Sequence record: OQ174501.1
DNA length: 64,000 nucleotides
DNA from: Escherichia phage REP2
Strand: one strand, 5' to 3'
Shown: positions 4,980 to 44,902 of the stretch, one piece after another
How positions within the stretch are numbered: position 1 is the first letter of the stretch
Layout of the letters: every line of letters starts with the position of its first letter
Notes under the pieces: generated by a model
Told to the model about the DNA's origin: nothing
Databases searched by the model: none
Seen by the model: the letters and a program-made list of their open reading frames with translations, nothing else
Made by a program: the position numbers and the translations under genes

Positions 4980-5128
4980 GTCATAATCTTGAAAAAGTAA
5001 TCGAGCATAATGTAGCTCAGGAACGCGAGTCGTTCAAGGAATTCGTAGAAAAAATTTTTGAAGAAAATAACACAGACCAGTTTACAAATCAAGCGTCTGA
5101 TGATATTATAATAAAGTCAACTAATTGA
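4976..5128 (+). CDS. Small hypothetical protein (asiA.1 position), 50 aa
   Basis: ATG overlaps the arn stop (ATGA); ORF MSHNLEKVIEHNVAQERESFKEF... is below the track cutoff. Confidence 0.45.
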   Translation: MSHNLEKVIEHNVAQERESFKEFVEKIFEENNTDQFTNQASDDIIIKSTN

Positions 5129-5140
5129 GTGGTATAGTTA

Positions 5141-5413
5141 ATGAATAAAAACATTGATACAGTTCGTGAAATTATTACTGTTGCGTCTATTTTGATTAAA
5201 TTTTCCAGAGAAGATATTGTTGAAAATCGTGCTAATTTTATTGCATTTCTGAATGAGATTGGAGTAACGCATGAAGGTAGAAAGTTAAATCAGAATTCAT
5301 TCCGTAAAATTGTTTCTGAATTAACCCAAGAAGATAAGAAAACCCTCATCGACGAATTCAACGAGGGTTTTGAGGGTGTATATCGATATCTAGAGATGTA
5401 TACAAACAAATAA
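5141..5413 (+). CDS. asiA: AsiA anti-sigma70 factor
   Basis: 90 aa; sequence MNKNIDTVREIITVASILIKFSREDIVENRANFIAFLNEIGVTHEGRKL... matches T4 AsiA. Confidence 0.95.
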   Translation: MNKNIDTVREIITVASILIKFSREDIVENRANFIAFLNEIGVTHEGRKLNQNSFRKIVSELTQEDKKTLIDEFNEGFEGVYRYLEMYTNK

Positions 5414-6070
5414 TTATTTAGCCCTTCCTAATATTCTGGCCGCCTGAGAACATATTGATTCAAGGCGGTCATTACTTATATGATCATTTCTATACCAGTA
5501 CATGGTTATTGTTCCAGCATAGATATTATCCAAATTGAAATATGGACAACTGTACATGTAATTTATTTCGGGAGTAGGCTTTTTAGTTGGTAAAAAAGCA
5601 AATTTTGAGTCGGAATAATAATGACGTCCATTTAAATGAACTGCATATTCATCCATAGTTTTATCAACAGGATATCCTCCAAGTGATTTTTCGCTTATTG
5701 TTGAAGGTAATTTTCCTTCGTATGCTATAATATCAACAAAATAGTTTAAGTTTTTAGGGCGGAAAGAATATACCGCACTAAAGTCTGCCTCAGATGATAT
5801 ATGAACTATCTGGAGTTGTTCCAGGGCGACAGATTCAAAGCGTGCATTTCTTTCCTTTTCAATAATTTCGCTGTATGTTTCATACTTTGATTGCTTATAG
5901 TACTCAAAGAAACTATCTCCCCTATACCAAACAATCGCCATTATAAACAAAAGAATTACGACAGCTACCCGGGAAGCAAGAACTTTCCCGGTAGCATTAT
6001 CTTTGAACAAGCGATCTAGAACACCAAATAGAATATCAGAGGGCGAAAATGATATTCTAGGTGCTGCCAT
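5414..6070 (-). CDS. t: Holin t
   Basis: 218 aa, N-terminal TM helix plus large periplasmic domain; same length as the T4 holin; convergent with asiA. Confidence 0.9.
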   Translation of the reverse strand: MAAPRISFSPSDILFGVLDRLFKDNATGKVLASRVAVVILLFIMAIVWYRGDSFFEYYKQSKYETYSEIIEKERNARFESVALEQLQIVHISSEADFSAVYSFRPKNLNYFVDIIAYEGKLPSTISEKSLGGYPVDKTMDEYAVHLNGRHYYSDSKFAFLPTKKPTPEINYMYSCPYFNLDNIYAGTITMYWYRNDHISNDRLESICSQAARILGRAK

Positions 6071-36784: not shown

Positions 36785-37072
36785 ATGTTTATGACTACTT
36801 ATTTTGATACCCGCAAAAATTTCTGTGAAGTTGTTTTCTCTAAGGCGCCTAAAGACCTTCCTGCTCATTTGCAACCTACCAGTGAATCGATTAAAAATTA
36901 TGTTGATGTGGTTTGTCCTTTAGAGTTTCGCACTGTAAATGGGCGTGATACTTTGTCTATCATTAAACTTAATGGCGAAATTGACATTGATCCCTCAATT
37001 GCGCGTGAAATTAATATTTCTGATATTGGCGGCGGTAATGTTAAATCACATGGGTTTCAGATGAGGTTCTAA
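36785..37072 (+). CDS. Hypothetical early protein (30.6 position)
   Basis: 95 aa from MFMTTYFD..., SD GAGGA upstream; a hairpin AGGGGC-TTCG-GCCCCT precedes it. Confidence 0.55.
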   Translation: MFMTTYFDTRKNFCEVVFSKAPKDLPAHLQPTSESIKNYVDVVCPLEFRTVNGRDTLSIIKLNGEIDIDPSIAREINISDIGGGNVKSHGFQMRF

Positions 37073-37269
37073 TGAAATTCTTTTTAGGTCAAACCGTTGA
37101 ATTAAAGGGAGTTGGTATACCTGGATTAATTTCTAAGGTTTTACCCGCATTTAAATTGGGAGATGTTCAAGTAAAAGAGGCTTATATTGTTTCTTGGGTA
37201 GATGGAAATGAAGACCTTCATATGGGCGATGAATTATCTCCTATCTATGGATTAAAGGAATTAATATGA
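37072..37269 (+). CDS. Hypothetical early protein (30.5 position)
   Basis: 65-aa ORF. Confidence 0.5.
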   Translation: MKFFLGQTVELKGVGIPGLISKVLPAFKLGDVQVKEAYIVSWVDGNEDLHMGDELSPIYGLKELI

Positions 37270-37472
37270 ATATAATTAATAAGATTTTTGGAATTCAGTA
37301 CATTAAGGTCACATATAAAGTAACAGATAAAAATCCGTATACTGATGAACACGAAGAACCACAAGTTGAGTCTATTATATTAGAAAAGGACCCTAACTGG
37401 CCAGTTGAATTTCGTCTTCCTTGCTATGGTCATTGGGCTGATGTTGAAATTATAAGCATTGAAAATGTCTGA
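37266..37472 (+). CDS. Hypothetical early protein (30.4 position)
   Basis: 68-aa ORF. Confidence 0.5.
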   Translation: MNIINKIFGIQYIKVTYKVTDKNPYTDEHEEPQVESIILEKDPNWPVEFRLPCYGHWADVEIISIENV

Positions 37473-37923
37473 GTTAGAGATTAGAAGTAATTTTAGATGG
37501 CCATCATGTGCATTAAGTAATTTCGCTCAATGGCCTTTCGTTATGGATGGTATTCAATTTGGAGGTCTCGAAGGATTCCTCCAAGGATGCAAGGTGAAAA
37601 ATGTTGAACAACAACGTCGTATATTTGGGTTATCTGGGCTTGCCGCCCAACAAGCTGGAAGGTCTTATGCTAGAGCTCAGGACCGTGGGACCCTCTTCTG
37701 GCTTGGAGTTCCGTTTTCAAGATACTCCCCGGCGTGGAAAGAATTATACACAAATGCATATTTTGAAGCAGCGATCCAAAACAAGGGCTTTCGTGATGCA
37801 TTACAAGCCTCGAAAGGAAAAGTTTTGAAGCACAGCATGGCTAGTGGTCTAACAAAAGATGATACAATACTAACCGAAGCTGAATTTATTAATGTGTTAA
37901 ACCTATTAAGAGATTCTCTATGA
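37459..37923 (+). CDS. NADAR-family (YbiA / DUF1768-like) protein, candidate ADP-ribose / N-glycosidic hydrolase (30.3 position)
   Basis: 154 aa; CALSNFAQWPFVMDGIQFGGLEGFLQGCK resembles the NADAR signature FSNFA-WP-VDG ... EHYFQA-K of E. coli YbiA as remembered. Confidence 0.6.
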   Translation: MKMSELEIRSNFRWPSCALSNFAQWPFVMDGIQFGGLEGFLQGCKVKNVEQQRRIFGLSGLAAQQAGRSYARAQDRGTLFWLGVPFSRYSPAWKELYTNAYFEAAIQNKGFRDALQASKGKVLKHSMASGLTKDDTILTEAEFINVLNLLRDSL

Positions 37924-38783
37924 AGCCTACTATTTTAACTGATATTGATGGAGTATGTTTAAGCTGGCAATCAGGTCTTCCTTATTTTGCCCAGAAATAT
38001 AATCTTCCGTTAGAACATATTTTAAAAATGATCCAGGATGAGAAATTTATTTCTCCTGGTAAACTATTTAATTGCGATGAAGAACTTGGCGTTAAGCTAA
38101 TTGAAAAATACAATCGTTCGGATTTTATTCGATACTTGTCTCCATATAAAGATGCCCTGTGTGTAATTAACAAATTAAAAGAAGATTATAATTTTGTAGC
38201 TGTTACAGCATTGGGTGATTCTATTGACGCTCTGTTGAATCGTCAATTTAATTTGAATGCTCTTTTTCCTGGTGCCTTCTCAGAAGTAATGATGTGTGGT
38301 CATGATTCTTCAAAAGAAGAGTTGTTCAAAAAGGCAAAAGAGAAATATAACGTAATTTGTTATATTGACGATCTCGCTCACCACTGCGACCACGCGAGTG
38401 AAATATTAAATGTTCCGGTTTATTGGATGGCTCGAGGAGAGCGTGACAATATTCCAAAAACTGCTCAGCGAGTTTATACATGGAATGATATAGAAAATAA
38501 GCTTTTTTCACCGAAGGAAAATAAAGAAAGTTTTGATAGTGAAAAAGCTATAAAAGATGTAATTGAGAAGATGGTTAAAAACGATTCTTTTCGTTGGAAC
38601 ACTACCTGGAGAACTCCTGGATTTAATCCGTATAATCCATATTATACACATCCATATAATCCATATTATACACACCCGTATCATATGAATCCATTCCATA
38701 CGTGGAGTTATACTAAGCCTGGTGATGCAGGGTATTTTAATAGATTTACTAGTGGTGATAATATTTTCCAAGGAGCATTCTAA
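37920..38783 (+). CDS. HAD-like hydrolase-fold protein with Tyr/Pro-rich tandem-repeat C-terminus (30.2 position)
   Basis: 287 aa; N-terminal ILTDIDGVCLSW (HAD motif I, DxDG); C-terminal NPYNPYYTHPYNPYYTHPYHMNPFHTW. Confidence 0.6.
   Translation: MKPTILTDIDGVCLSWQSGLPYFAQKYNLPLEHILKMIQDEKFISPGKLFNCDEELGVKLIEKYNRSDFIRYLSPYKDALCVINKLKEDYNFVAVTALGDSIDALLNRQFNLNALFPGAFSEVMMCGHDSSKEELFKKAKEKYNVICYIDDLAHHCDHASEILNVPVYWMARGERDNIPKTAQRVYTWNDIENKLFSPKENKESFDSEKAIKDVIEKMVKNDSFRWNTTWRTPGFNPYNPYYTHPYNPYYTHPYHMNPFHTWSYTKPGDAGYFNRFTSGDNIFQGAF
38628..38699 (+). repeat. 3 x 24-bp tandem direct repeat inside the 30.2-position gene
   Basis: CCGTATAATCCATATTATACACAT / CCATATAATCCATATTATACACAC / degenerate third unit. 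Confidence 0.8.
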
Positions 38784-39052
38784 TGTTTGTCGTTCACACT
38801 ATTTATGAAAATGAAGGTAATACTACACGTGATTACGGTCACGTAAATCAATTTTTTAGATGCAATCCAGAATTCCGAGCTCAAAAAGACGAACGAATTT
38901 TTAAAAAATGTGTAGAGCAAGGTTTCATTTATATCAAGCACTGGATGCAAGGAAATAAAGTTAGAACTACATATCATAAGTCTTTACCTGAGCTTAATGA
39001 TGAATTGATTTATAATAGAGCTGTAAACCAAACCTTGAAGGATGAGCAATGA
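38783..39052 (+). CDS. Hypothetical early protein (30.1 position)
   Basis: 89-aa ORF; overlapping stop/start with neighbours. Confidence 0.55.
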   Translation: MFVVHTIYENEGNTTRDYGHVNQFFRCNPEFRAQKDERIFKKCVEQGFIYIKHWMQGNKVRTTYHKSLPELNDELIYNRAVNQTLKDEQ

Positions 39053-40509
39053 TTCTTAAAATTCTGAATGAAATAGCATCTATTGGATCAACTAAGCAGA
39101 AGCAAGCAATTCTTGAAAAGAATAAAGATAATGAATTGCTTAAACGGGTATATCGTCTGACTTATTCTCGTGGGTTACAGTATTATATCAAGAAATGGCC
39201 TAAACCTGGTATTGCTACCCAGAGTTTTGGAATGCTGACTATTACCGATATGCTTGACTTCATTGAATTCACGTTAGCTACTCGGAAATTGACCGGAAAT
39301 GCTGCAATTGAGGAATTGACTGGATATATCACCGATGGTAAAAAGGATGATGTTGAAGTTTTGCGTCGAGTGATGATGCGAGACCTTGAATGCGGTGCTT
39401 CAGTATCTATTGCAAACAAAGTTTGGCCAGGTTTAATTCCTGAACAACCTCAAATGCTGGCAAGTTCTTATGATGAAAAAGGCATTAATAAGAATATCAA
39501 ATTTCCAGCCTTTGCCCAGTTAAAAGCTGATGGAGCTCGGTGTTTTGCTGAAGTCCGAGGTGATGAATTAGATGATGTTCGTCTTTTATCACGAGCTGGT
39601 AATGAATATCTAGGATTAGATCTTCTTAAGGAAGAGTTAATCAAAATGACCGCTGAAGCCCGCCAGATTCATCCAGAAGGCGTGTTAATTGATGGCGAAT
39701 TGGTATATCATGAGCAAGTTGAAAAAGAGCCAGAAGGTCTAGATTTTCTTTTTGATGCTCCTGAAATCAGTAAAGCTAAAGAGTTTGCCGAAGTAGCTGA
39801 ATCTCGTACTGCATCTAATGGCATCGCCAATAAATCTTTAAAGGGAACCATTTCTGAAAAAGAAGCTCAATGCATGAAGTTTCAGGTCTGGGATTATGTC
39901 CCGTTGGTAGAAATATACGGTCTTCCTGCATTTCGTTTGAAATATGATGTACGTTTTTCTAAACTAGAACAAATGACATCAGGTTATGATAAAGTAATTT
40001 TAATTGAAAACCAGGTAGTAAATAACCTAGATGAAGCTAAGGTAATTTATAAAAAGTATATTGATCAAGGTCTTGAAGGTATTATTCTCAAAAATACCGA
40101 TGGATTATGGGAAAATGCTCGTTCAAAAAATCTTTATAAATTTAAAGAAGTAATTGATGTTGATTTAAAAATTGTAGGAATTTATCCTCACCGTAAAGAC
40201 CCTACTAAAGCAGGTGGTTTCATTCTTGAATCAGAGTGTGGAAAAATTAAAGTAAATGCTGGTTCAGGCTTAAAAGATAAAGCCGGTATAAAATCGCATG
40301 AACTTGATCGTACTCGCATTATGGAAAACCAAAATTATTATATTGGAAAAATTCTAGAGTGCGAATGCAACGGCTGGGTAAAATTAGATGGACGTACTGA
40401 TTACGTTAAGCTATTTCTTCCAATTGCAATTCGTTTACGTGAAGATAAAACTAAAGCTAATACGTTCGAAGATGTATTTGGCGATTTTCATGAGGTAACT
40501 GGTTTATGA
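39049..40509 (+). CDS. 30: ATP-dependent DNA ligase
   Basis: 486 aa; adenylylation motif KADGAR; MILKILNEIASIGSTKQKQAILEKNKDNELLKRVYRLTYSRG... matches T4 ligase. Confidence 0.97.
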   Translation: MILKILNEIASIGSTKQKQAILEKNKDNELLKRVYRLTYSRGLQYYIKKWPKPGIATQSFGMLTITDMLDFIEFTLATRKLTGNAAIEELTGYITDGKKDDVEVLRRVMMRDLECGASVSIANKVWPGLIPEQPQMLASSYDEKGINKNIKFPAFAQLKADGARCFAEVRGDELDDVRLLSRAGNEYLGLDLLKEELIKMTAEARQIHPEGVLIDGELVYHEQVEKEPEGLDFLFDAPEISKAKEFAEVAESRTASNGIANKSLKGTISEKEAQCMKFQVWDYVPLVEIYGLPAFRLKYDVRFSKLEQMTSGYDKVILIENQVVNNLDEAKVIYKKYIDQGLEGIILKNTDGLWENARSKNLYKFKEVIDVDLKIVGIYPHRKDPTKAGGFILESECGKIKVNAGSGLKDKAGIKSHELDRTRIMENQNYYIGKILECECNGWVKLDGRTDYVKLFLPIAIRLREDKTKANTFEDVFGDFHEVTGL

Positions 40510-40691
40510 AAGCTTACTTAGAAACAATTGTCGTGGCTCAAAAAGAAGGTGGAGATGTTTCCACTGCGGTATCGCAGGTTATTCTTGAATTCCCAGATAA
40601 ACTAGCATATGATGAATTCACGGAAAGATTTGATCCATATGAAAAAGGTCCAAAGTTTGAAGTATATCGTACTCTTTTAGCTCTCTATTAA
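40506..40691 (+). CDS. Hypothetical protein
   Basis: 61-aa ORF followed by a hairpin. Confidence 0.5.
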   Translation: MKAYLETIVVAQKEGGDVSTAVSQVILEFPDKLAYDEFTERFDPYEKGPKFEVYRTLLALY

Positions 40692-40747: not shown

Positions 40748-42841
40748 ATGGAACTTATTACAGAATTATTTGACGAAGATACTACTCTTCCGATTACAAA
40801 CTTAAATCCAAAGAAGAAAATACCACAAATTTTTTCAGTTCATGTTGATGATGCAATTGAACAACCAGGCTTTCGTTTATGTACCTATACATCTGGAGGT
40901 GATACTAATCGTGATTTAAAGATGGGCGATAAAATGATGCACATTGTTCCTTTTACATTAACTGCTAAAGGTTCAATTGCTAAATTAAAAGGTCTTGGTC
41001 CAAGCCCGATTAATTATATCAATTCAGTTTTTACTGTTGCAATGCAAACAATGCGTCAATATAAAATTGATGCCTGTATGCTTCGTATTCTTAAGTCTAA
41101 AACCGCCGGTCAAGCTCGACAAATTCAACTTATTGCTGATAGACTCATCCGCAGTCGTTCAGGTGGCAGATACGTCCTTCTTAAGGAACTCTGGGATTAC
41201 GATAAAAAGTATGCATATATTCTTATACATCGTAAAAATGTATCACTAGAAGACATTCCAGGAGTTCCAGAAATTAGCACCGAGCTTTTTACTAAAGTTG
41301 AATCGAAGGTCGGTGATGTTTATATCAATAAAGATACTGGAGCTCAAGTAACCAAAAATGAGGCAATTGCTGCATCTATTGCACAAGAAAATGATAAACG
41401 TTCTGACCAAGCCGTAATCGTTAAAGTTAAAATTTCCCGTAGAGCAATTGCACAAAGTCAGTCATTGGAATCTTCTAGATTTGAAAGTGAATTATTCCAG
41501 AAGTATGAATCTACAGCAGCTAATTTTAATAAACCAGCTACTGCACCTTTAATTCCCGAAGCAGAAGAAATGAAAATTGGAATTAATTCATTAGCTTCTA
41601 AAACAAAGGCAGCAAAAATTATTGCTGAAGGAACGGCAGATGAACTTCACTATGATTATAAATTCTTTCCAATGAGTCAAGTCGGTGAAGTTTCAGAAAA
41701 AATTAAAGAAGTAATTTTTAATGCAATTAAAAATGAACCAACTACTTCAATAAAATGTTTAGAGAAATACGCAGCAGCTGTAAATCAATTCTTTGAAGAT
41801 TATAAAGATAAATGGCTTGCTAATCATAATAAAAATCGTAAAGGACAACCAGATGAAGTCTGGGAAGAAATAACTAAAAATTCCTGGAACGCAGCAAAAA
41901 CTAAATTCCTCAAACGAATGATTTACAGTTTTTCTGGAATTGGTGCTGGTCCAATGATTGATATTACTATTGCCCGCGATGGTTCTAAATATACTCCATC
42001 ACAAAAGCGTGGCATTAGAGAATATTGCGGTTCAGGATATACTGACATCAATAATCTTCTTTTAGGTCGTTACAATCCAGAACGATACGATGTAATGAGT
42101 GAAAAAGAAATTGAATCTGCTATAAATAACTTAGATTCAGCTTTTGAAAATGGTGACCGTATACCAGAAGGCATTACAGTTTATCGTGCTCAAAGTATGA
42201 CTGCTCCTATATATGAAGCGTTAGTTAAAAATAAAGTGTTCTACTTCAGAAATTTTGTATCTACTTCTTTAACTCCTATCATTTTTGGACGTTTTGGAAT
42301 CACACATGCTGGTATTGGTCTTTTAGAACCAGAAGCTCGTAACGAATTAACAGTTGATAAAAATGAAGAAGGAATAACTATTAATCCAAACGAAATAAGA
42401 GCGTATAAAGAAAATCCTGAATATGTTAAAGTTCAAATAGGATGGGCAATTGATGGAGCTCATAAAGTTAATGTTGTATATCCAGGAAGTCTCGGAATAG
42501 CAACAGAAGCTGAAGTTATTCTACCACGCGGATTGATGGTCAAGGTTAATAAAATAACTGATGCTTCTAATAATGACGGAACAACATCTAATAATACAAA
42601 ACTCATTCAAGCTGAAGTTATGACCACGGAAGAGCTCACCGAATCGGTAATCTATGATGGAGACCATTTAATGGAAACTGGTGAATTGGTTGCAATGACA
42701 GGTGATATTGAAATAGAAGACAGAGTTGACTTTGCATCATTTGTTTCATCAAATATTAAACAGAAAGTAGAATCATCTCTTGGAATTATTGCGTCTTGCA
42801 TAGATATTACAAACATGCCTTACAAGTTCGTTCAAGGATAA
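40748..42841 (+). CDS. alt: Alt ADP-ribosyltransferase (virion-injected)
   Basis: 697 aa; N-terminus MELITELFDEDTTLPITNL...; R-S-E ART motifs (YRAQ, FVSTSL, EAEVILPRG); matches T4 Alt. Confidence 0.9.
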   Translation: MELITELFDEDTTLPITNLNPKKKIPQIFSVHVDDAIEQPGFRLCTYTSGGDTNRDLKMGDKMMHIVPFTLTAKGSIAKLKGLGPSPINYINSVFTVAMQTMRQYKIDACMLRILKSKTAGQARQIQLIADRLIRSRSGGRYVLLKELWDYDKKYAYILIHRKNVSLEDIPGVPEISTELFTKVESKVGDVYINKDTGAQVTKNEAIAASIAQENDKRSDQAVIVKVKISRRAIAQSQSLESSRFESELFQKYESTAANFNKPATAPLIPEAEEMKIGINSLASKTKAAKIIAEGTADELHYDYKFFPMSQVGEVSEKIKEVIFNAIKNEPTTSIKCLEKYAAAVNQFFEDYKDKWLANHNKNRKGQPDEVWEEITKNSWNAAKTKFLKRMIYSFSGIGAGPMIDITIARDGSKYTPSQKRGIREYCGSGYTDINNLLLGRYNPERYDVMSEKEIESAINNLDSAFENGDRIPEGITVYRAQSMTAPIYEALVKNKVFYFRNFVSTSLTPIIFGRFGITHAGIGLLEPEARNELTVDKNEEGITINPNEIRAYKENPEYVKVQIGWAIDGAHKVNVVYPGSLGIATEAEVILPRGLMVKVNKITDASNNDGTTSNNTKLIQAEVMTTEELTESVIYDGDHLMETGELVAMTGDIEIEDRVDFASFVSSNIKQKVESSLGIIASCIDITNMPYKFVQG

Positions 42842-42844
42842 ATC

Positions 42845-44902
42845 ATGGAACTTATTACAGAATTATTTGACGGCGCCGAAGCGCCGGTTGTTAACTTAAA
42901 TCCTAAGCATAAAATACCTCAAATTTTTGCTATTCAAGCCGGTGAAGAAAGCGTTCTTCCTGGATTTCGATTTTGTACATACACCTCTGGCGGTGATACG
43001 AATAAAAACGTTAAGCCAGGCGACAAAATGATGCATATCGTAATGATAGGTGTTAATGAGAAACTATCATTAGTTAAGCTTAAAAACTTGGGTGGAAATC
43101 CAATTGGCGTCATTAATGCTGTTTTTGATACTGCTCTTCAAACAATGAAGCAGTATAAAATTGATGCATGCCTATTCCGCGTACTAAAAAGTAAAACAAA
43201 TGGCGCAGCTCGTCAAATGCAAGTTATTGCTGACCGTTTAGTACGTACTAAAGGAGCAGGTCGATATGTTCTTTTAAAGGAAATCTGGGATTATGATAAA
43301 AAGTACGCATATATTATGGTTTACCGTAAAAATGCCAATTTAGAAGACATTCCAGGTGTACCTCCTATTTCAACCGAGTTATTCACAAAAGTTGAATCAA
43401 AGGTTGGTGATGTTTATGTAGACGTTAAAACAGGTAATGCTGTTCCTAAAGCTGTTGCTGTTGCTGCTTCTATTGCTTTAGAAAATGATAAGCGCACGGA
43501 TCAAGCTGTTATTCAGAAAACTAAAATTAGTCGTCGATTAGCAGCACAAGCTCAATATTCTACTGTTGATGCTTCACTTCAGGGTGATAGCTTCGCTGCT
43601 AAGAAATATCAAGAGTTTGAATCTAAAGTTCCGGTATATAAAGCAGAAGGACCAATGAACTCTGGCGTTATTCAGATTGGTTCAAACTTTAGCAAAGGAG
43701 CTATCGGTGGTATGAGAAGTGCTTCTCGTTTTAAATCTAGTGATTATGAACTCGAAAGCTTCCGAAATCATATTGCATTGGCTCATGCACGTTTACGTGA
43801 TCCATCTATCAAGTTACAGAGCGATATAACATATCAAGGTTCTCAAGAATATTTAAAGAATAAAGAATTCTTTGATTATAAAACTGATAAAATTTTAAGC
43901 GATCTTGCTGATATTAATATTTCTAATAGCTTTGATGTTATTAAGAAAATTATCAATGATTTAGTTAAAGGTTCTAAAGCTACACCAGATGAAAAGACAG
44001 CTATTATTCAATTTGTAATGAATGGAATTTATAAATTAATTGATGAATCTACTGCTCAGGCATATGAATATGCAAGCACTGAAGTAACTCCAAAAGGATT
44101 AACTCAGGCTGAATCTGATGTAATTGAAGATTATTGCGCAGATTCATATGTTGAAATGAACTCGTTCCTTCTAGGTAAACCTGATTCTACACGTGAAGAA
44201 TATATGGAACGTGCTATTAAGCACATTGAGACGTTGGATTCTGCATTTGCTAAAGGTTCAGTTCTTCCTCCGGGAACTACACTTTACCGTGGCCAAGAAG
44301 TTACTTTTAAAACTTTACGTCATAATATAGAAAATAAAATGTTCTATTTCAAGAACTTTGTATCTACTTCACTCAAGCCAAATATCTTCGGTGAATATGG
44401 TAAAAATTATATGGCTTTAGATGACGCTGGAACAGTATTTTCTGGTGAAGGAGAAGGTTCAGTTGATGCTGAAGATTTAATGCATATGGGTAGTCATTCT
44501 ACATATGCGAATGAAGACGCTGAAACTAATGTAGGTATGGTAATTAAAGGAGCTGAACGAGTTAAAGTTATCGTTCCAGGTCATTTATCAGGATTTCCAT
44601 CCGAAGCTGAAGTTATTTTGCCGCGTGGAATTTTACTGAAGATTAATAAAGTAAGTACGTACATGATGAAAGAAACCGCTTATAATAAGTATCTAATTGA
44701 AGGCACGATTGTTCCTCCTTCTGAACAATTAGAGGAATCGGTATATGATGGTGACCATTTGATGGAAACCGGAGAAGTTCGTCCAATGGCTGGATTTAAT
44801 CAATTCCTTGTAGAAGAATCAAAAGAAGAGGAAAGCGAAGTTTCTCAAATCTTAGCTTCTTTGGTTAACATCAACGGAATGTCTAAAAAGTTCAAAATGT
44901 AG
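42845..44902 (+). CDS. Alt-like ADP-ribosyltransferase paralog
   Basis: 685 aa; same N-terminal ~200 aa scaffold (MELITELFDGAEAPVVNL...), diverged middle, retained YRGQ / FVSTSL / EAEVILPRG motifs. Confidence 0.85.
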   Translation: MELITELFDGAEAPVVNLNPKHKIPQIFAIQAGEESVLPGFRFCTYTSGGDTNKNVKPGDKMMHIVMIGVNEKLSLVKLKNLGGNPIGVINAVFDTALQTMKQYKIDACLFRVLKSKTNGAARQMQVIADRLVRTKGAGRYVLLKEIWDYDKKYAYIMVYRKNANLEDIPGVPPISTELFTKVESKVGDVYVDVKTGNAVPKAVAVAASIALENDKRTDQAVIQKTKISRRLAAQAQYSTVDASLQGDSFAAKKYQEFESKVPVYKAEGPMNSGVIQIGSNFSKGAIGGMRSASRFKSSDYELESFRNHIALAHARLRDPSIKLQSDITYQGSQEYLKNKEFFDYKTDKILSDLADINISNSFDVIKKIINDLVKGSKATPDEKTAIIQFVMNGIYKLIDESTAQAYEYASTEVTPKGLTQAESDVIEDYCADSYVEMNSFLLGKPDSTREEYMERAIKHIETLDSAFAKGSVLPPGTTLYRGQEVTFKTLRHNIENKMFYFKNFVSTSLKPNIFGEYGKNYMALDDAGTVFSGEGEGSVDAEDLMHMGSHSTYANEDAETNVGMVIKGAERVKVIVPGHLSGFPSEAEVILPRGILLKINKVSTYMMKETAYNKYLIEGTIVPPSEQLEESVYDGDHLMETGEVRPMAGFNQFLVEESKEEESEVSQILASLVNINGMSKKFKM

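What the first reader, a model, noticed from the sequence alone, without database searches (positions are those of the whole stretch)
37459..38783. NADAR-like protein next to a HAD-like protein with a tandem-repeat tail, directly upstream of the ligase and ADP-ribosyltransferase genes
The 154-aa ORF carries CALSNFAQWPFVMDGIQFGGLEGFLQGCK, which resembles the NADAR (YbiA/DUF1768) signature. NADAR enzymes have been reported to remove ADP-ribose from guanine in DNA and so reverse DarT-type toxins, which makes this a candidate counter-defence gene. The adjacent 287-aa ORF begins with a HAD-type DIDGV motif and ends with the repeat NPYYTHPY NPYYTHPY, encoded by a 3 x 24-bp tandem repeat at 38628..38699.
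Basis: partly seen in the sequence, partly recalled or inferred. Interest (0 to 1): 0.45.

Follow-up and report, generated by a model that had tools for sequence, protein, structure and literature searches.

The report
Known anti-DarT gene adfN plus phosphatase
This stretch of a T4-like coliphage holds adfN (gene 30.3), an already characterised enzyme that strips ADP-ribose off phage DNA to defeat the bacterial DarTG1 defence. Next to it lies gene 30.2, a conserved but unstudied nucleotidase-like phosphatase whose floppy tail carries a small lineage-specific 24-bp duplication, so the finding is correct but largely ordinary.

Summary
The window is Escherichia phage REP3, a T4-like phage (100% DNA identity). 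The "154-aa ORF" is gene 30.3 (adfN). Its real start is the ATG at 37465, giving 152 aa, of which 150 are identical to T4 AdfN. T4 AdfN is a published NADAR-fold DNA ADP-ribosylglycohydrolase, necessary and sufficient to overcome DarTG1 (Nat Commun 2025; Toxins 2024). Here the catalytic residues E36, K43 and H123 and the C-terminal helix are intact, and the predicted fold matches only the three solved NADAR structures.

The tail is disordered and hypervariable. The repeat has 2.3 copies of 24 bp (38626..38681), not three. About 58 phage records share this allele at 95% identity or more; T4 lacks it.

The only open angle is whether gp30.2 is the unidentified T-even factor that AdfN needs, which is speculative.

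The parts
37465..37923 (+). adfN (T4 gene 30.3): NADAR-fold DNA ADP-ribosylglycohydrolase, an anti-DarTG1 counter-defence gene, 152 aa
   Evidence: Pfam PF08010 E 5e-70. 150/152 identical to T4 gp30.3. The model matches only YbiA 2b3w, PnNADAR 8bau and G. lovleyi NADAR 8bat. Function was shown for the T4 protein (PMC11825919).
37507..37593 (+). NADAR core motif (ALSNF ... EGFLQ..K) holding catalytic E36 and K43 (T4 numbering)
   Evidence: A16, L17, S18, N19, F20, F25, E36, G37, F38 and Q40 are invariant, and K43 is present in 88 of 90 relatives. The stretch aligns to YbiA residues 29-85.
37831..37833 (+). Codon for His123, the third catalytic residue typical of the phage gp30.3 clade of NADARs
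   Evidence: H123 is invariant in 90/90 sequences. PMC11125620 describes His at this position as the mark of phage NADARs.
37876..37917 (+). C-terminal helix of AdfN (residues 138-151), intact here; its loss in RB69 gives DarTG1 sensitivity
   Evidence: Helix 138-151 in the model. RB69 truncation and T4 truncation data are in PMC11825919.
37601..37828 (+). 30.3' : 75-aa ORF in another frame inside adfN, annotated in T4; doubtful as a gene
   Evidence: 96% identical to T4 30.3'. The frame stays open in most close relatives, but the ATG is lost in 8 of the 11 close loci examined and one has an internal stop.
37920..38783 (+). Gene 30.2: HAD-superfamily, NT5C-like phosphatase with a disordered C-terminal tail, 287 aa
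37920..38507 (+). Catalytic HAD core plus helical C1 cap (residues 1-196)
   Evidence: pLDDT is 94-98 over residues 1-190. The Rossmann-like strands are 4-7, 91-96, 120-125, 145-150 and 167-169, with cap helices at 16-72. tblastn finds this core in 1438 phage records.
38508..38780 (+). Variable tail (residues 197-287): one helix (207-220), then a Pro/Tyr/Trp/Asn/His-rich disordered region
   Evidence: pLDDT is below 60 from residue ~200 apart from the helix block at 211-220 (83), and below 50 for most of 250-287. The tail is shorter than 25 aa in 35 of 96 relatives and of several unrelated types in the rest.
38626..38681 (+). 24-bp tandem duplication (2.3 copies) encoding NPYYTHPY twice
   Evidence: TRF period 24, 2.3 copies, 90% matches, score 98. 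T4 lacks 30 nt here and another allele lacks 15 nt. The same allele occurs at 95-100% identity in about 58 phage records.
37266..37472 (+). Gene 30.4, upstream neighbour; its stop codon overlaps the adfN start by 8 nt
   Evidence: 98.5% identical to T4 gp30.4; sequence read.
38783..39052 (+). Gene 30.1 (DUF3045), between 30.2 and the ligase; TAATG and ATGA overlaps with its neighbours
   Evidence: PF11243 E 2e-63; junction sequences read.
39049..40509 (+). Gene 30, ATP-dependent DNA ligase; the most consistently conserved neighbour of the 30.2 family
   Evidence: PF01068 E 6.5e-33. 98% identical to T4 gp30. A ligase lies within 5 kb of the HAD gene in 68 of 79 loci.
40748..42841 (+). alt, ADP-ribosyltransferase (697 aa), orthologue of T4 Alt
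   Evidence: PF03496 E 1e-37; 71% identical to T4 Alt.
42845..44902 (+). Second, intact Alt paralogue (685 aa)
   Evidence: PF03496 E 5e-20. 41% identical to the first Alt. Its N-terminal 116 residues are 93-98% identical to the T4 fragments alt.-1 and alt.-2.

Best explanation
The region is the gene 30.4-30.3-30.2-30.1-30 block of a T4-like phage (Escherichia phage REP3). The genes are tightly packed and overlap at their start and stop codons.

Gene 30.3 is adfN. Its product has the NADAR (YbiA) fold. Using Glu36, Lys43 and His123, it hydrolyses the bond between ADP-ribose and guanine that the host toxin DarT1 places on phage DNA. Replication can then proceed in DarTG1-carrying cells. This mechanism was shown for the 98.7%-identical T4 protein and is inferred here by near-identity.

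Gene 30.2 encodes a separate enzyme. It is a Mg2+-dependent HAD phosphatase with a helical cap, most like 5'(3')-deoxyribonucleotidases. It most probably dephosphorylates a nucleoside-monophosphate-like small molecule through an aspartyl-phosphate intermediate on Asp8. The fold and motifs are shown here; the substrate and role are inferred.

Its C-terminal ~90 residues form a disordered, fast-evolving extension. The NPYYTHPY-NPYYTHPY repeat is a replication-slippage duplication inside that low-complexity tail. It is fixed in one sublineage of Tequatrovirus, and nothing suggests it has a function of its own.

The adjacency of adfN and 30.2 is inherited T4-type synteny rather than a demonstrated two-gene module.
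For: Identity of the window: 100% DNA identity to REP3 over 3.6 kb, and more than 490 T4-like records cover at least 80% of it.

AdfN:
- PF08010 E 5e-70 and 150/152 identity to T4.
- The two differences (I125M, D143N) fall in variable columns.
- E36 and H123 are invariant and K43 is present in 88/90.
- 34 of 90 family members also hit Pfam NADAR, best E 1.5e-7.
- The family profile finds only YbiA in the PDB, E 0.006.
- The pLDDT-93 model matches 2b3w, 8bau and 8bat and nothing else.
- Published genetics and biochemistry on T4 AdfN.

gp30.2:
- D8, D10 and K132 are invariant; T96, D150 and D151 are conserved in at least 90% of sequences.
- The core has pLDDT above 94.
- All 50 listed Foldseek matches are HAD-fold structures; the deoxyribonucleotidases fit best, at rmsd 4.3-4.8.
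- The family profile's best PDB hit is mouse cdN. It aligns W16, F43 and Y64 with cdN F20, F46 and Y67.
- 22 of 96 members hit PF00702 and 17 of 96 hit NT5C.
- Remote relatives pass the NT5C gathering score: 41, 34.6 and 26.4 bits against 24.8.
- Some GenBank records already call it a phosphatase, 5' nucleotidase or HAD protein.

Repeat and tail:
- TRF result and the indel pattern among alleles.
- Low pLDDT in the tail.
- This is the only exact tandem peptide repeat among 58 tail-bearing relatives.

Linkage:
- A HAD gene lies within 5 kb in 19 of 80 NADAR loci.
- A NADAR gene lies within 5 kb in 32 of 79 HAD loci, against a ligase in 68 of 79.
- At least nine IMG/VR contigs appear in both scans with the two genes roughly 50-70 kb apart.
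Against: - Nothing was tested on the REP3 proteins themselves.
- Neither window protein reaches E<=1 against Pfam NADAR, HAD or NT5C directly. NCBIfam and PADLOC give nothing.
- The roles I assign to cdN F18, F44 and Y65 in base stacking come from memory. I could not confirm them in the paper library.
- The many invariant cap residues (W16, S18, Y64, S67, R108, N111, R172) suggest a specific substrate that may not be a plain dNMP.
- AdfN(T4) does not work outside T-even infection. The authors suspect a missing phage partner, so 'independent enzymes' is not proven.
Confidence: 0.87

Rival explanations
1. gp30.2 and AdfN form a functional pair. gp30.2 would be the unidentified 'additional T-even protein' that AdfN needs to work in vivo. 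It might clear the released ADP-ribose or a phosphorylated by-product, or its tail might recruit AdfN to replicating DNA.
For: The genes overlap by ATGA and are probably translationally coupled. AdfN(T4) fails as an antitoxin in uninfected E. coli and barely rescues T5 and Bas25, yet it fully rescues RB69. The authors propose a missing T-even factor. Both gene families occur in about 1450-1500 phage records with almost the same genus distribution.
Against: Adjacency is confined to part of the T4-like phages. Only 19 of 80 NADAR loci have the HAD gene within 5 kb, none of about 60 distant NADAR loci do, and at least nine contigs hold the two genes roughly 50-70 kb apart. Genome-level co-occurrence is expected for any two quasi-core Straboviridae genes. 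Purified AdfN alone de-ADP-ribosylates DNA in vitro. Roughly a hundred other T-even-specific genes are equally compatible candidates.
Confidence: 0.06
2. gp30.2 is a nucleic-acid end-healing phosphatase, for example a DNA 3'-phosphatase, that prepares ends for the neighbouring DNA ligase gp30. On this view it is not a small-molecule nucleotidase.
Against: The model has a large five-helix C1 cap over the active site (residues 16-72). Established HAD knowledge is that such caps go with small substrates, whereas polynucleotide 3'-phosphatases such as T4 Pnkp are cap-less. The Pnkp match covers only the 125-129-residue core. T4-like phages already encode Pnkp. Conserved adjacency inside one virus family may be inherited synteny.
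Confidence: 0.08
3. AdfN's main job is housekeeping for the phage's own ADP-ribosyltransferases (Alt, ModA, ModB). It would remove stray ADP-ribose from phage nucleic acid, and DarT1 reversal would be a side benefit.
For: adfN lies about 3 kb upstream of two Alt genes. [quoted passage not shown]
Against: Deleting adfN gives a clear DarTG1-specific phenotype, and no defect without DarTG1 is reported. NADAR activity is specific for guanosine-ADPr, whereas Alt is known (from my own knowledge) to target proteins. In many T4-like genomes the NADAR gene is far from alt.
Confidence: 0.05
4. The NPYYTHPY tandem repeat is a functional, copy-number-tuned binding motif, and its expansion is adaptive.
For: The two-copy allele is fixed and 95-100% conserved in about 58 phage records from different hosts and countries. 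The tail carries other short motifs conserved across genera, WRTPG and G-I/L-E-Y..Q/R-P-T.
Against: T4 and many relatives lack the duplication. The tail is shorter than 25 residues in 35 of 96 relatives. No other relative has an exact tandem repeat. The region is predicted to be disordered. In this same allele the conserved GIEY..RPT motif is degraded to GDAGYFNRFT, which suggests relaxed constraint.
Confidence: 0.04

Closest known systems
T4 AdfN (gp30.3), anti-DarT factor NADAR (Johannesman et al., Nat Commun 2025, PMC11825919)
   Same: 150 of 152 residues are identical. It has the same length, the same catalytic E36, K43 and H123, the same C-terminal helix and the same genomic position between 30.4 and 30.2.
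   Different: Only I125M and D143N differ, both at variable family positions. The REP3 protein itself has not been tested.
DarG1 / DarT1-associated NADAR antitoxins (e.g. Geobacter lovleyi NADAR 8bat; Schuller et al., Mol Cell 2023, PMC11543638)
   Same: Same YbiA/NADAR fold (Foldseek probability 0.99). Same chemistry, the removal of ADP-ribose from guanine in DNA.
   Different: AdfN is an orphan with no linked DarT. It has His instead of Asp as the third catalytic residue. It cannot act as an antitoxin in uninfected cells. Sequence identity is about 16%.
E. coli YbiA (PDB 2b3w), founding NADAR/DUF1768 member
   Same: It is the best structural match (E 8e-5, TM 0.68/0.63) and the only PDB sequence found by the family profile (E 0.006). 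The SNF ... E..FQ..K motif is shared.
   Different: YbiA has Glu in the last strand where the phage clade has His. It belongs to a host gene context, not a phage one. Identity is 18%.
5'(3')-deoxyribonucleotidases, Pfam NT5C (human/mouse cdN and mdN; S. epidermidis 3bwv)
   Different: gp30.2 itself does not hit the NT5C model. Identity is 16-20%. It has an extra ~90-residue disordered tail. Its substrate is untested.
Phage T5 Dmp, deoxynucleoside-5'-monophosphatase
   Same: It is a phage-encoded early enzyme annotated as degrading dNMPs, so it is a functional precedent for a phage nucleotidase. It has a DLDGT motif, like HAD motif I.
   Different: There is no detectable homology beyond motif I (hhalign probability 2%), and Dmp has no Pfam hit. 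It is an analogue at most, not a relative.
T4 Pnkp 3'-phosphatase domain (PDB 1ltq, 5uj0)
   Different: The match covers only 125-129 core residues. Pnkp lacks the helical cap that gp30.2 has (the cap's significance comes from general HAD knowledge).

Membership tests
NADAR superfamily (YbiA fold) | [quoted passage not shown] | tested here: met
   The AlphaFold model has pLDDT 93 and pTM 0.88. Its top three PDB matches are the three NADAR structures 2b3w, 8bau and 8bat (probability 0.99-1.00). The next hit has E 3.
NADAR superfamily (YbiA fold) | Conserved catalytic Glu and Lys in the E-x-F-Q-x-x-K motif | tested here: met
   E36 is present in 90/90 and K43 in 88/90 relatives, and both are present in the window protein. 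E36A and K43A impair T4 AdfN.
NADAR superfamily (YbiA fold) | Significant match of the protein itself to the Pfam NADAR model PF08719 | tested here: not met
   There is no PF08719 hit at E<=1 for the window protein. However, it hits the phage-specific family PF08010 at 5e-70, and 34 of 90 of its relatives hit PF08719 (best 1.5e-7). This is a sensitivity limit of the model, not evidence against membership.
NADAR superfamily (YbiA fold) | ADP-ribosyl N-glycohydrolase activity on guanine-ADPr | not testable with these tools
   Shown for T4 gp30.3 in vitro (PMC11125620; PMC11825919). Inferred here from 98.7% identity.
AdfN / phage gp30.3 clade | [quoted passage not shown] | tested here: met
   H123 is invariant in 90/90 sequences and lies in strand 120-122/123 of the model. 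The criterion comes from PMC11125620.
AdfN / phage gp30.3 clade | Intact C-terminal helix (lost in the inactive RB69 allele) | tested here: met
   The protein is full length at 152 aa, with helix 138-151. The RB69 truncation of 15 residues reduces activity.
AdfN / phage gp30.3 clade | Confers resistance to DarTG1 during infection | not testable with these tools
   Shown for T4 and T2 by deletion and complementation. Not tested for REP3.
HAD (haloacid dehalogenase-like) superfamily | Four catalytic motifs: I DxDx(T/V), II S/T, III K/R, IV DD or similar | tested here: met
   D8-I-D10-G-V. T96 is at the end of strand 91-96. K132 precedes helix 133-142. D150-D151 are at the end of strand 145-150. 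D8, D10 and K132 are invariant, and T96, D150 and D151 are conserved in at least 90% of 96 sequences.
HAD (haloacid dehalogenase-like) superfamily | Rossmann-like HAD core fold | tested here: met
HAD (haloacid dehalogenase-like) superfamily | Direct match to Pfam HAD models (PF00702, PF13419) | tested here: not met
   There is no hit for the window protein at E<=1. 22 of 96 relatives hit PF00702 (best 9.6e-5) and 10 of 96 hit HAD_2. The family is divergent.
HAD (haloacid dehalogenase-like) superfamily | Mg2+-dependent phosphoryl transfer via an aspartyl-phosphate intermediate | not testable with these tools
   Inferred from the motifs only.
NT5C family, 5'(3')-deoxyribonucleotidases (PF06941) | Match to the NT5C profile above the gathering score | tested here: inconclusive
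   The window protein gives no hit. 17 of 96 relatives hit below or near threshold (best 1.2e-4). Remote relatives found with the gp30.2 profile pass it: L163 ORF 41 bits, P0320 34.6 bits and P0340 26.4 bits, against GA 24.8.
NT5C family, 5'(3')-deoxyribonucleotidases (PF06941) | C1 helical cap with aromatic residues that stack on the base | tested here: inconclusive
   Cap helices at 16-72. W16, F43 and Y64 align with mouse cdN F20, F46 and Y67 and are invariant or nearly so. The base-stacking role of the cdN residues is recalled from the literature and was not verified here.
NT5C family, 5'(3')-deoxyribonucleotidases (PF06941) | dNMP phosphatase activity | not testable with these tools
   I found no published assay of gp30.2: zero papers mention 'gp30.2'.

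The most novel reading that the evidence does not exclude
gp30.2, the capped NT5C-like phosphatase translationally coupled to adfN, is the unidentified T-even-encoded factor that AdfN needs to neutralise DarT1 in vivo. If so, 30.3-30.2 would be a two-enzyme counter-defence module: a glycohydrolase plus a phosphatase that removes an inhibitory or toxic nucleotide product, or that tethers AdfN through its tail.
Probability: 0.06. Interest if true: 0.55.

Novelty: already known. Interest (0 to 1): 0.12.

Why it matters
This window therefore adds only one more carrier of adfN.

The remaining value is modest. It lies in gene 30.2, a quasi-core gene of T4-like phages (about 1400 sequenced phages, and more than 1200 clusters at 50% identity in metagenomes). 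No one has assayed it. It can now be described as a capped, NT5C-like HAD phosphatase that travels with the DNA ligase gene.

Because AdfN is reported to need an unknown T-even partner, the adjacent gene is a cheap first candidate to test. If that failed, 30.2 would still be worth a substrate screen as a possible phage nucleotide-pool or anti-defence enzyme.

Tried and rejected
- Direct Pfam scans of both window proteins for NADAR, HAD and NT5C gave nothing at E<=1. NCBIfam and PADLOC also gave nothing.
- Single-sequence phmmer against PDB sequences gave only chance hits.
- T5 Dmp is not a relative of gp30.2: hhalign probability 2%, motif I only, and Dmp has no Pfam hit.
- The sigma-70 promoter and terminator scan of 34.5-45.2 kb was no better than shuffles (43 found against 38.6 +/- 5.5) and was not used.
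- Rfam found no RNA family in 34-46 kb.
- Literature searches for 'gp30.2', for 30.x gene names and for phage deoxyribonucleotidases returned nothing on gene 30.2. A search to confirm the cdN base-stacking residues failed.
- Longer homologues whose extra sequence lies outside the HAD domain (P0207, P0248, P0256, P0303) have no recognisable extra Pfam domain, so they give no functional hint.
- I rejected the idea that the NADAR-HAD pair is a conserved operon, on the locus counts.
- I rejected the idea that the repeat is a family feature.
Full report
**What the window is.** Bases 37000-40600 are 100% identical to Escherichia phage REP3 (OQ174502.1). They are 96-97% identical to many other Tequatrovirus genomes; 493 records cover at least 80% of the query. 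Comparison with the annotated T4 genome shows the region is the T4 block 31 - rIII - 30.9...30.4 - 30.3 - 30.2 - 30.1 - 30 (ligase) - alt.1 - alt, read here on the + strand.

**Checking the observation.**
- Both ORFs exist.
- The quoted NADAR-like string lies at 37507..37593.
- DIDGV is at residues 8-12 of the second ORF (37941..37955).
- NPYYTHPY occurs twice in tandem, at residues 239-254.
- Tandem Repeats Finder reports 2.3 copies of a 24-bp unit at 38626..38681 (90% matches, score 98). The stated 3 x 24 bp at 38628..38699 is therefore wrong, because the sequence after the 8-base partial copy is unrelated.
- 33 residues follow the repeat, so it is not the end of the protein.
- The TTG start at 37459 is only the first in-frame start. 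T4 annotates the ATG at 37465, giving 152 aa. The published residue numbers (E36, K43) fit only that start.
- Gene 30.1 (DUF3045) lies between the second ORF and the ligase.
- Gene boundaries overlap: 30.4/30.3 by 8 nt, 30.3/30.2 by ATGA, 30.2/30.1 by TAATG and 30.1/30 by ATGA. This is typical of a co-transcribed, translationally coupled T4 early block.

**The 152-aa protein is AdfN.**
- It hits Pfam PF08010 (Phage_30_3) at 5e-70 and is 150/152 identical to T4 gp30.3.
- The literature already covers this protein. Suskiewicz-group work showed that T4 gp30.3 hydrolyses guanosine-linked ADP-ribose in vitro but does not protect uninfected cells from DarT1 (PMC11125620).
- Johannesman et al. renamed it AdfN. 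Deleting it makes T4 and T2 unable to plaque on DarTG1 cells, and expressing it restores RB69. E36A, K43A and loss of the C-terminal helix impair it. The purified protein removes ADP-ribose from DarT1-modified DNA (PMC11825919).

My independent tests agree with these reports:
- In an alignment of 90 relatives, ALSNF, F25, E36, G37, F38, Q40 and H123 are invariant, and K43 is present in 88/90.
- The two REP3/T4 differences (I125M, D143N) fall in variable columns.
- A profile of the family finds only E. coli YbiA among all PDB sequences (E 0.006).
- 34 of 90 relatives also match Pfam NADAR.
- The AlphaFold model (pLDDT 93) matches YbiA, Phytophthora NADAR and Geobacter lovleyi NADAR, and then nothing below E = 3.

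The window protein does not itself reach E<=1 against Pfam NADAR.

**The 287-aa protein is gp30.2, a divergent HAD phosphatase.**

Direct searches are almost silent:
- There is no Pfam hit at E<=1 and no NCBIfam hit.
- It matches phrog_420 (unknown function).
- It gives weak hits to a polynucleotide-kinase PHROG and a phosphoheptose-isomerase PHROG.

An alignment of 96 relatives shows the four HAD motifs:
- D8 and D10, invariant, after strand 1.
- T96, at the end of strand 91-96.
- K132, invariant.
- D150-D151, at the end of strand 145-150.

Structure and profile comparisons agree:
- The model is confident for residues 1-190 (pLDDT 94-98). It has a five-helix cap inserted after motif I.
- All 50 listed Foldseek matches in the PDB are HAD-fold structures, and the cytosolic and mitochondrial 5'(3')-deoxyribonucleotidases fit best.
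- The family profile's best PDB sequence hit is mouse cdN (E 0.08). W16, F43 and Y64 align to cdN F20, F46 and Y67. As I recall, these residues line the base pocket, but I could not verify that here.
- 22 of 96 members hit PF00702 and 17 of 96 hit NT5C.
- An exhaustive profile search finds 1264 clusters at 50% identity (E<=1e-3), mostly stand-alone proteins of about 200 aa.
- Remote members pass the NT5C gathering score.

Some GenBank records already label this gene 'HAD-like hydrolase', 'putative phosphatase' or '5' nucleotidase'. No paper in the library mentions gp30.2. The fold assignment is therefore solid, while the substrate is inferred.

**The tail and the repeat.**
- Residues ~197-287 are predicted to be one helix followed by disorder.
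- Across relatives the tail is shorter than 25 residues in 35 of 96 and at least 40 residues in 58 of 96. It comes in several unrelated types.
- Two short motifs recur across genera: W-R/x-x-P-G and G-I/L-E-Y..Q/R-P-T.
- Among close relatives this spot is an indel hotspot. T4 lacks 30 nt, another allele lacks 15 nt, one has an extra SG, and one has NHLY instead of NPY.
- The REP3 allele is not private. 58 phage records match this 151-bp stretch at 95% identity or more, and the 40 listed all cover it fully at 98-100% (Shfl2, HY01, PST, REP4 and others).
- No other relative has an exact tandem peptide repeat.
- In the REP3-type allele the conserved GIEYLYNRPT motif is degraded to GDAGYFNRFT.
- I read the repeat as a slippage duplication in a low-complexity, weakly constrained tail.

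**Are the two genes a module?**
- I fetched 80 IMG/VR loci around gp30.3 relatives and 79 around gp30.2 relatives.
- A gp30.2-like gene lies within 5 kb of the NADAR gene in 19 of 80 loci. These are the 13 close T-even loci that extend past the NADAR gene plus six others, and none of about 60 loci with ~40%-identical NADARs.
- Conversely, a NADAR gene lies within 5 kb of the HAD gene in 32 of 79 loci. A ligase gene does so in 68 of 79, often immediately downstream, even where all the other 30.x genes are gone.
- At least nine IMG/VR contigs appear in both scans with the two genes roughly 50-70 kb apart.
- Both families occur in about 1450-1500 sequenced phages with the same genus distribution. 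That is expected for two quasi-core genes of Straboviridae.
- The adjacency in REP3 and T4 is therefore synteny, not evidence of coupling. The more persistent partner of 30.2 is the ligase.

**The one open angle.** Johannesman et al. report that AdfN(T4) works fully only during T-even infection and that DNA modification is not the reason. They suggest that another T-even protein is required. The overlapping downstream gene is an obvious candidate, and my data do not exclude it. They do not favour it over many other T-even genes either. I give it about 6%.

**Verdict.** The interpretation (NADAR counter-defence gene and HAD-like neighbour) is right but already published or annotated. The repeat is an ordinary allele-level duplication. 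Novelty: already known. Interest: low.

Noticed in passing
window 42845..44902 (+), with 40748..42841: REP3 carries a second, full-length Alt-type ADP-ribosyltransferase (685 aa, 41% identical to the first). In T4 only two short fragments, alt.-1 and alt.-2, remain at this position. They are 93-98% identical to the first 116 residues of this protein, so T4 looks like the deleted state.
   Followed up: partly
window 37500..37800: G+C rises to 0.46 inside adfN against about 0.32-0.36 in the flanking genes. This fits the published view that the gene was captured from a cellular NADAR source.
   Followed up: no
window 37601..37828 (+): The alternative-frame ORF 30.3' inside adfN (annotated in T4) is 96% conserved here. 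In close relatives the frame stays open, but the ATG is replaced in 8 of the 11 close loci examined and one locus has an internal stop. Its status as a gene is doubtful.
   Followed up: partly
loci L092-L162 (IMG/VR), HAD gene at about 5000-5650 and ligase just downstream: The gp30.2-type phosphatase gene keeps a DNA ligase gene within 5 kb in 68 of 79 loci. This includes distant T4-like phages of Acinetobacter, Aeromonas and Vibrio in which genes 30.1 and 30.4-30.8 are missing. Whether this reflects function or only synteny is open.
   Followed up: partly
L155:4291-4986, L167:5584-6279, L163:5692-5997: In small marine or metagenomic phage contigs without a nearby ligase, the remote NT5C-like relatives of gp30.2 sit next to PD-(D/E)XK nucleases or a MazG-like pyrophosphohydrolase (the latter a weak hit, E 9.5e-4). 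That setting hints at nucleotide metabolism.
   Followed up: partly
window 38700..38740: The tail motif G-G-I-E-Y-L-Y-N-R-P-T, conserved in T4 and across genera, reads G-D-A-G-Y-F-N-R-F-T in REP3-type alleles. That is about seven substitutions plus a 3-nt deletion within roughly 33 nt, far above the local ~4% divergence.
   Followed up: partly
PMC11125620, Methods 4.2: The Toxins 2024 paper lists its T4 gp30.3 construct as 'residues 1-208', whereas the T4 and REP3 genes encode 152 aa. This may be a tag-inclusive count or a different accession; I did not resolve it.
   Followed up: no
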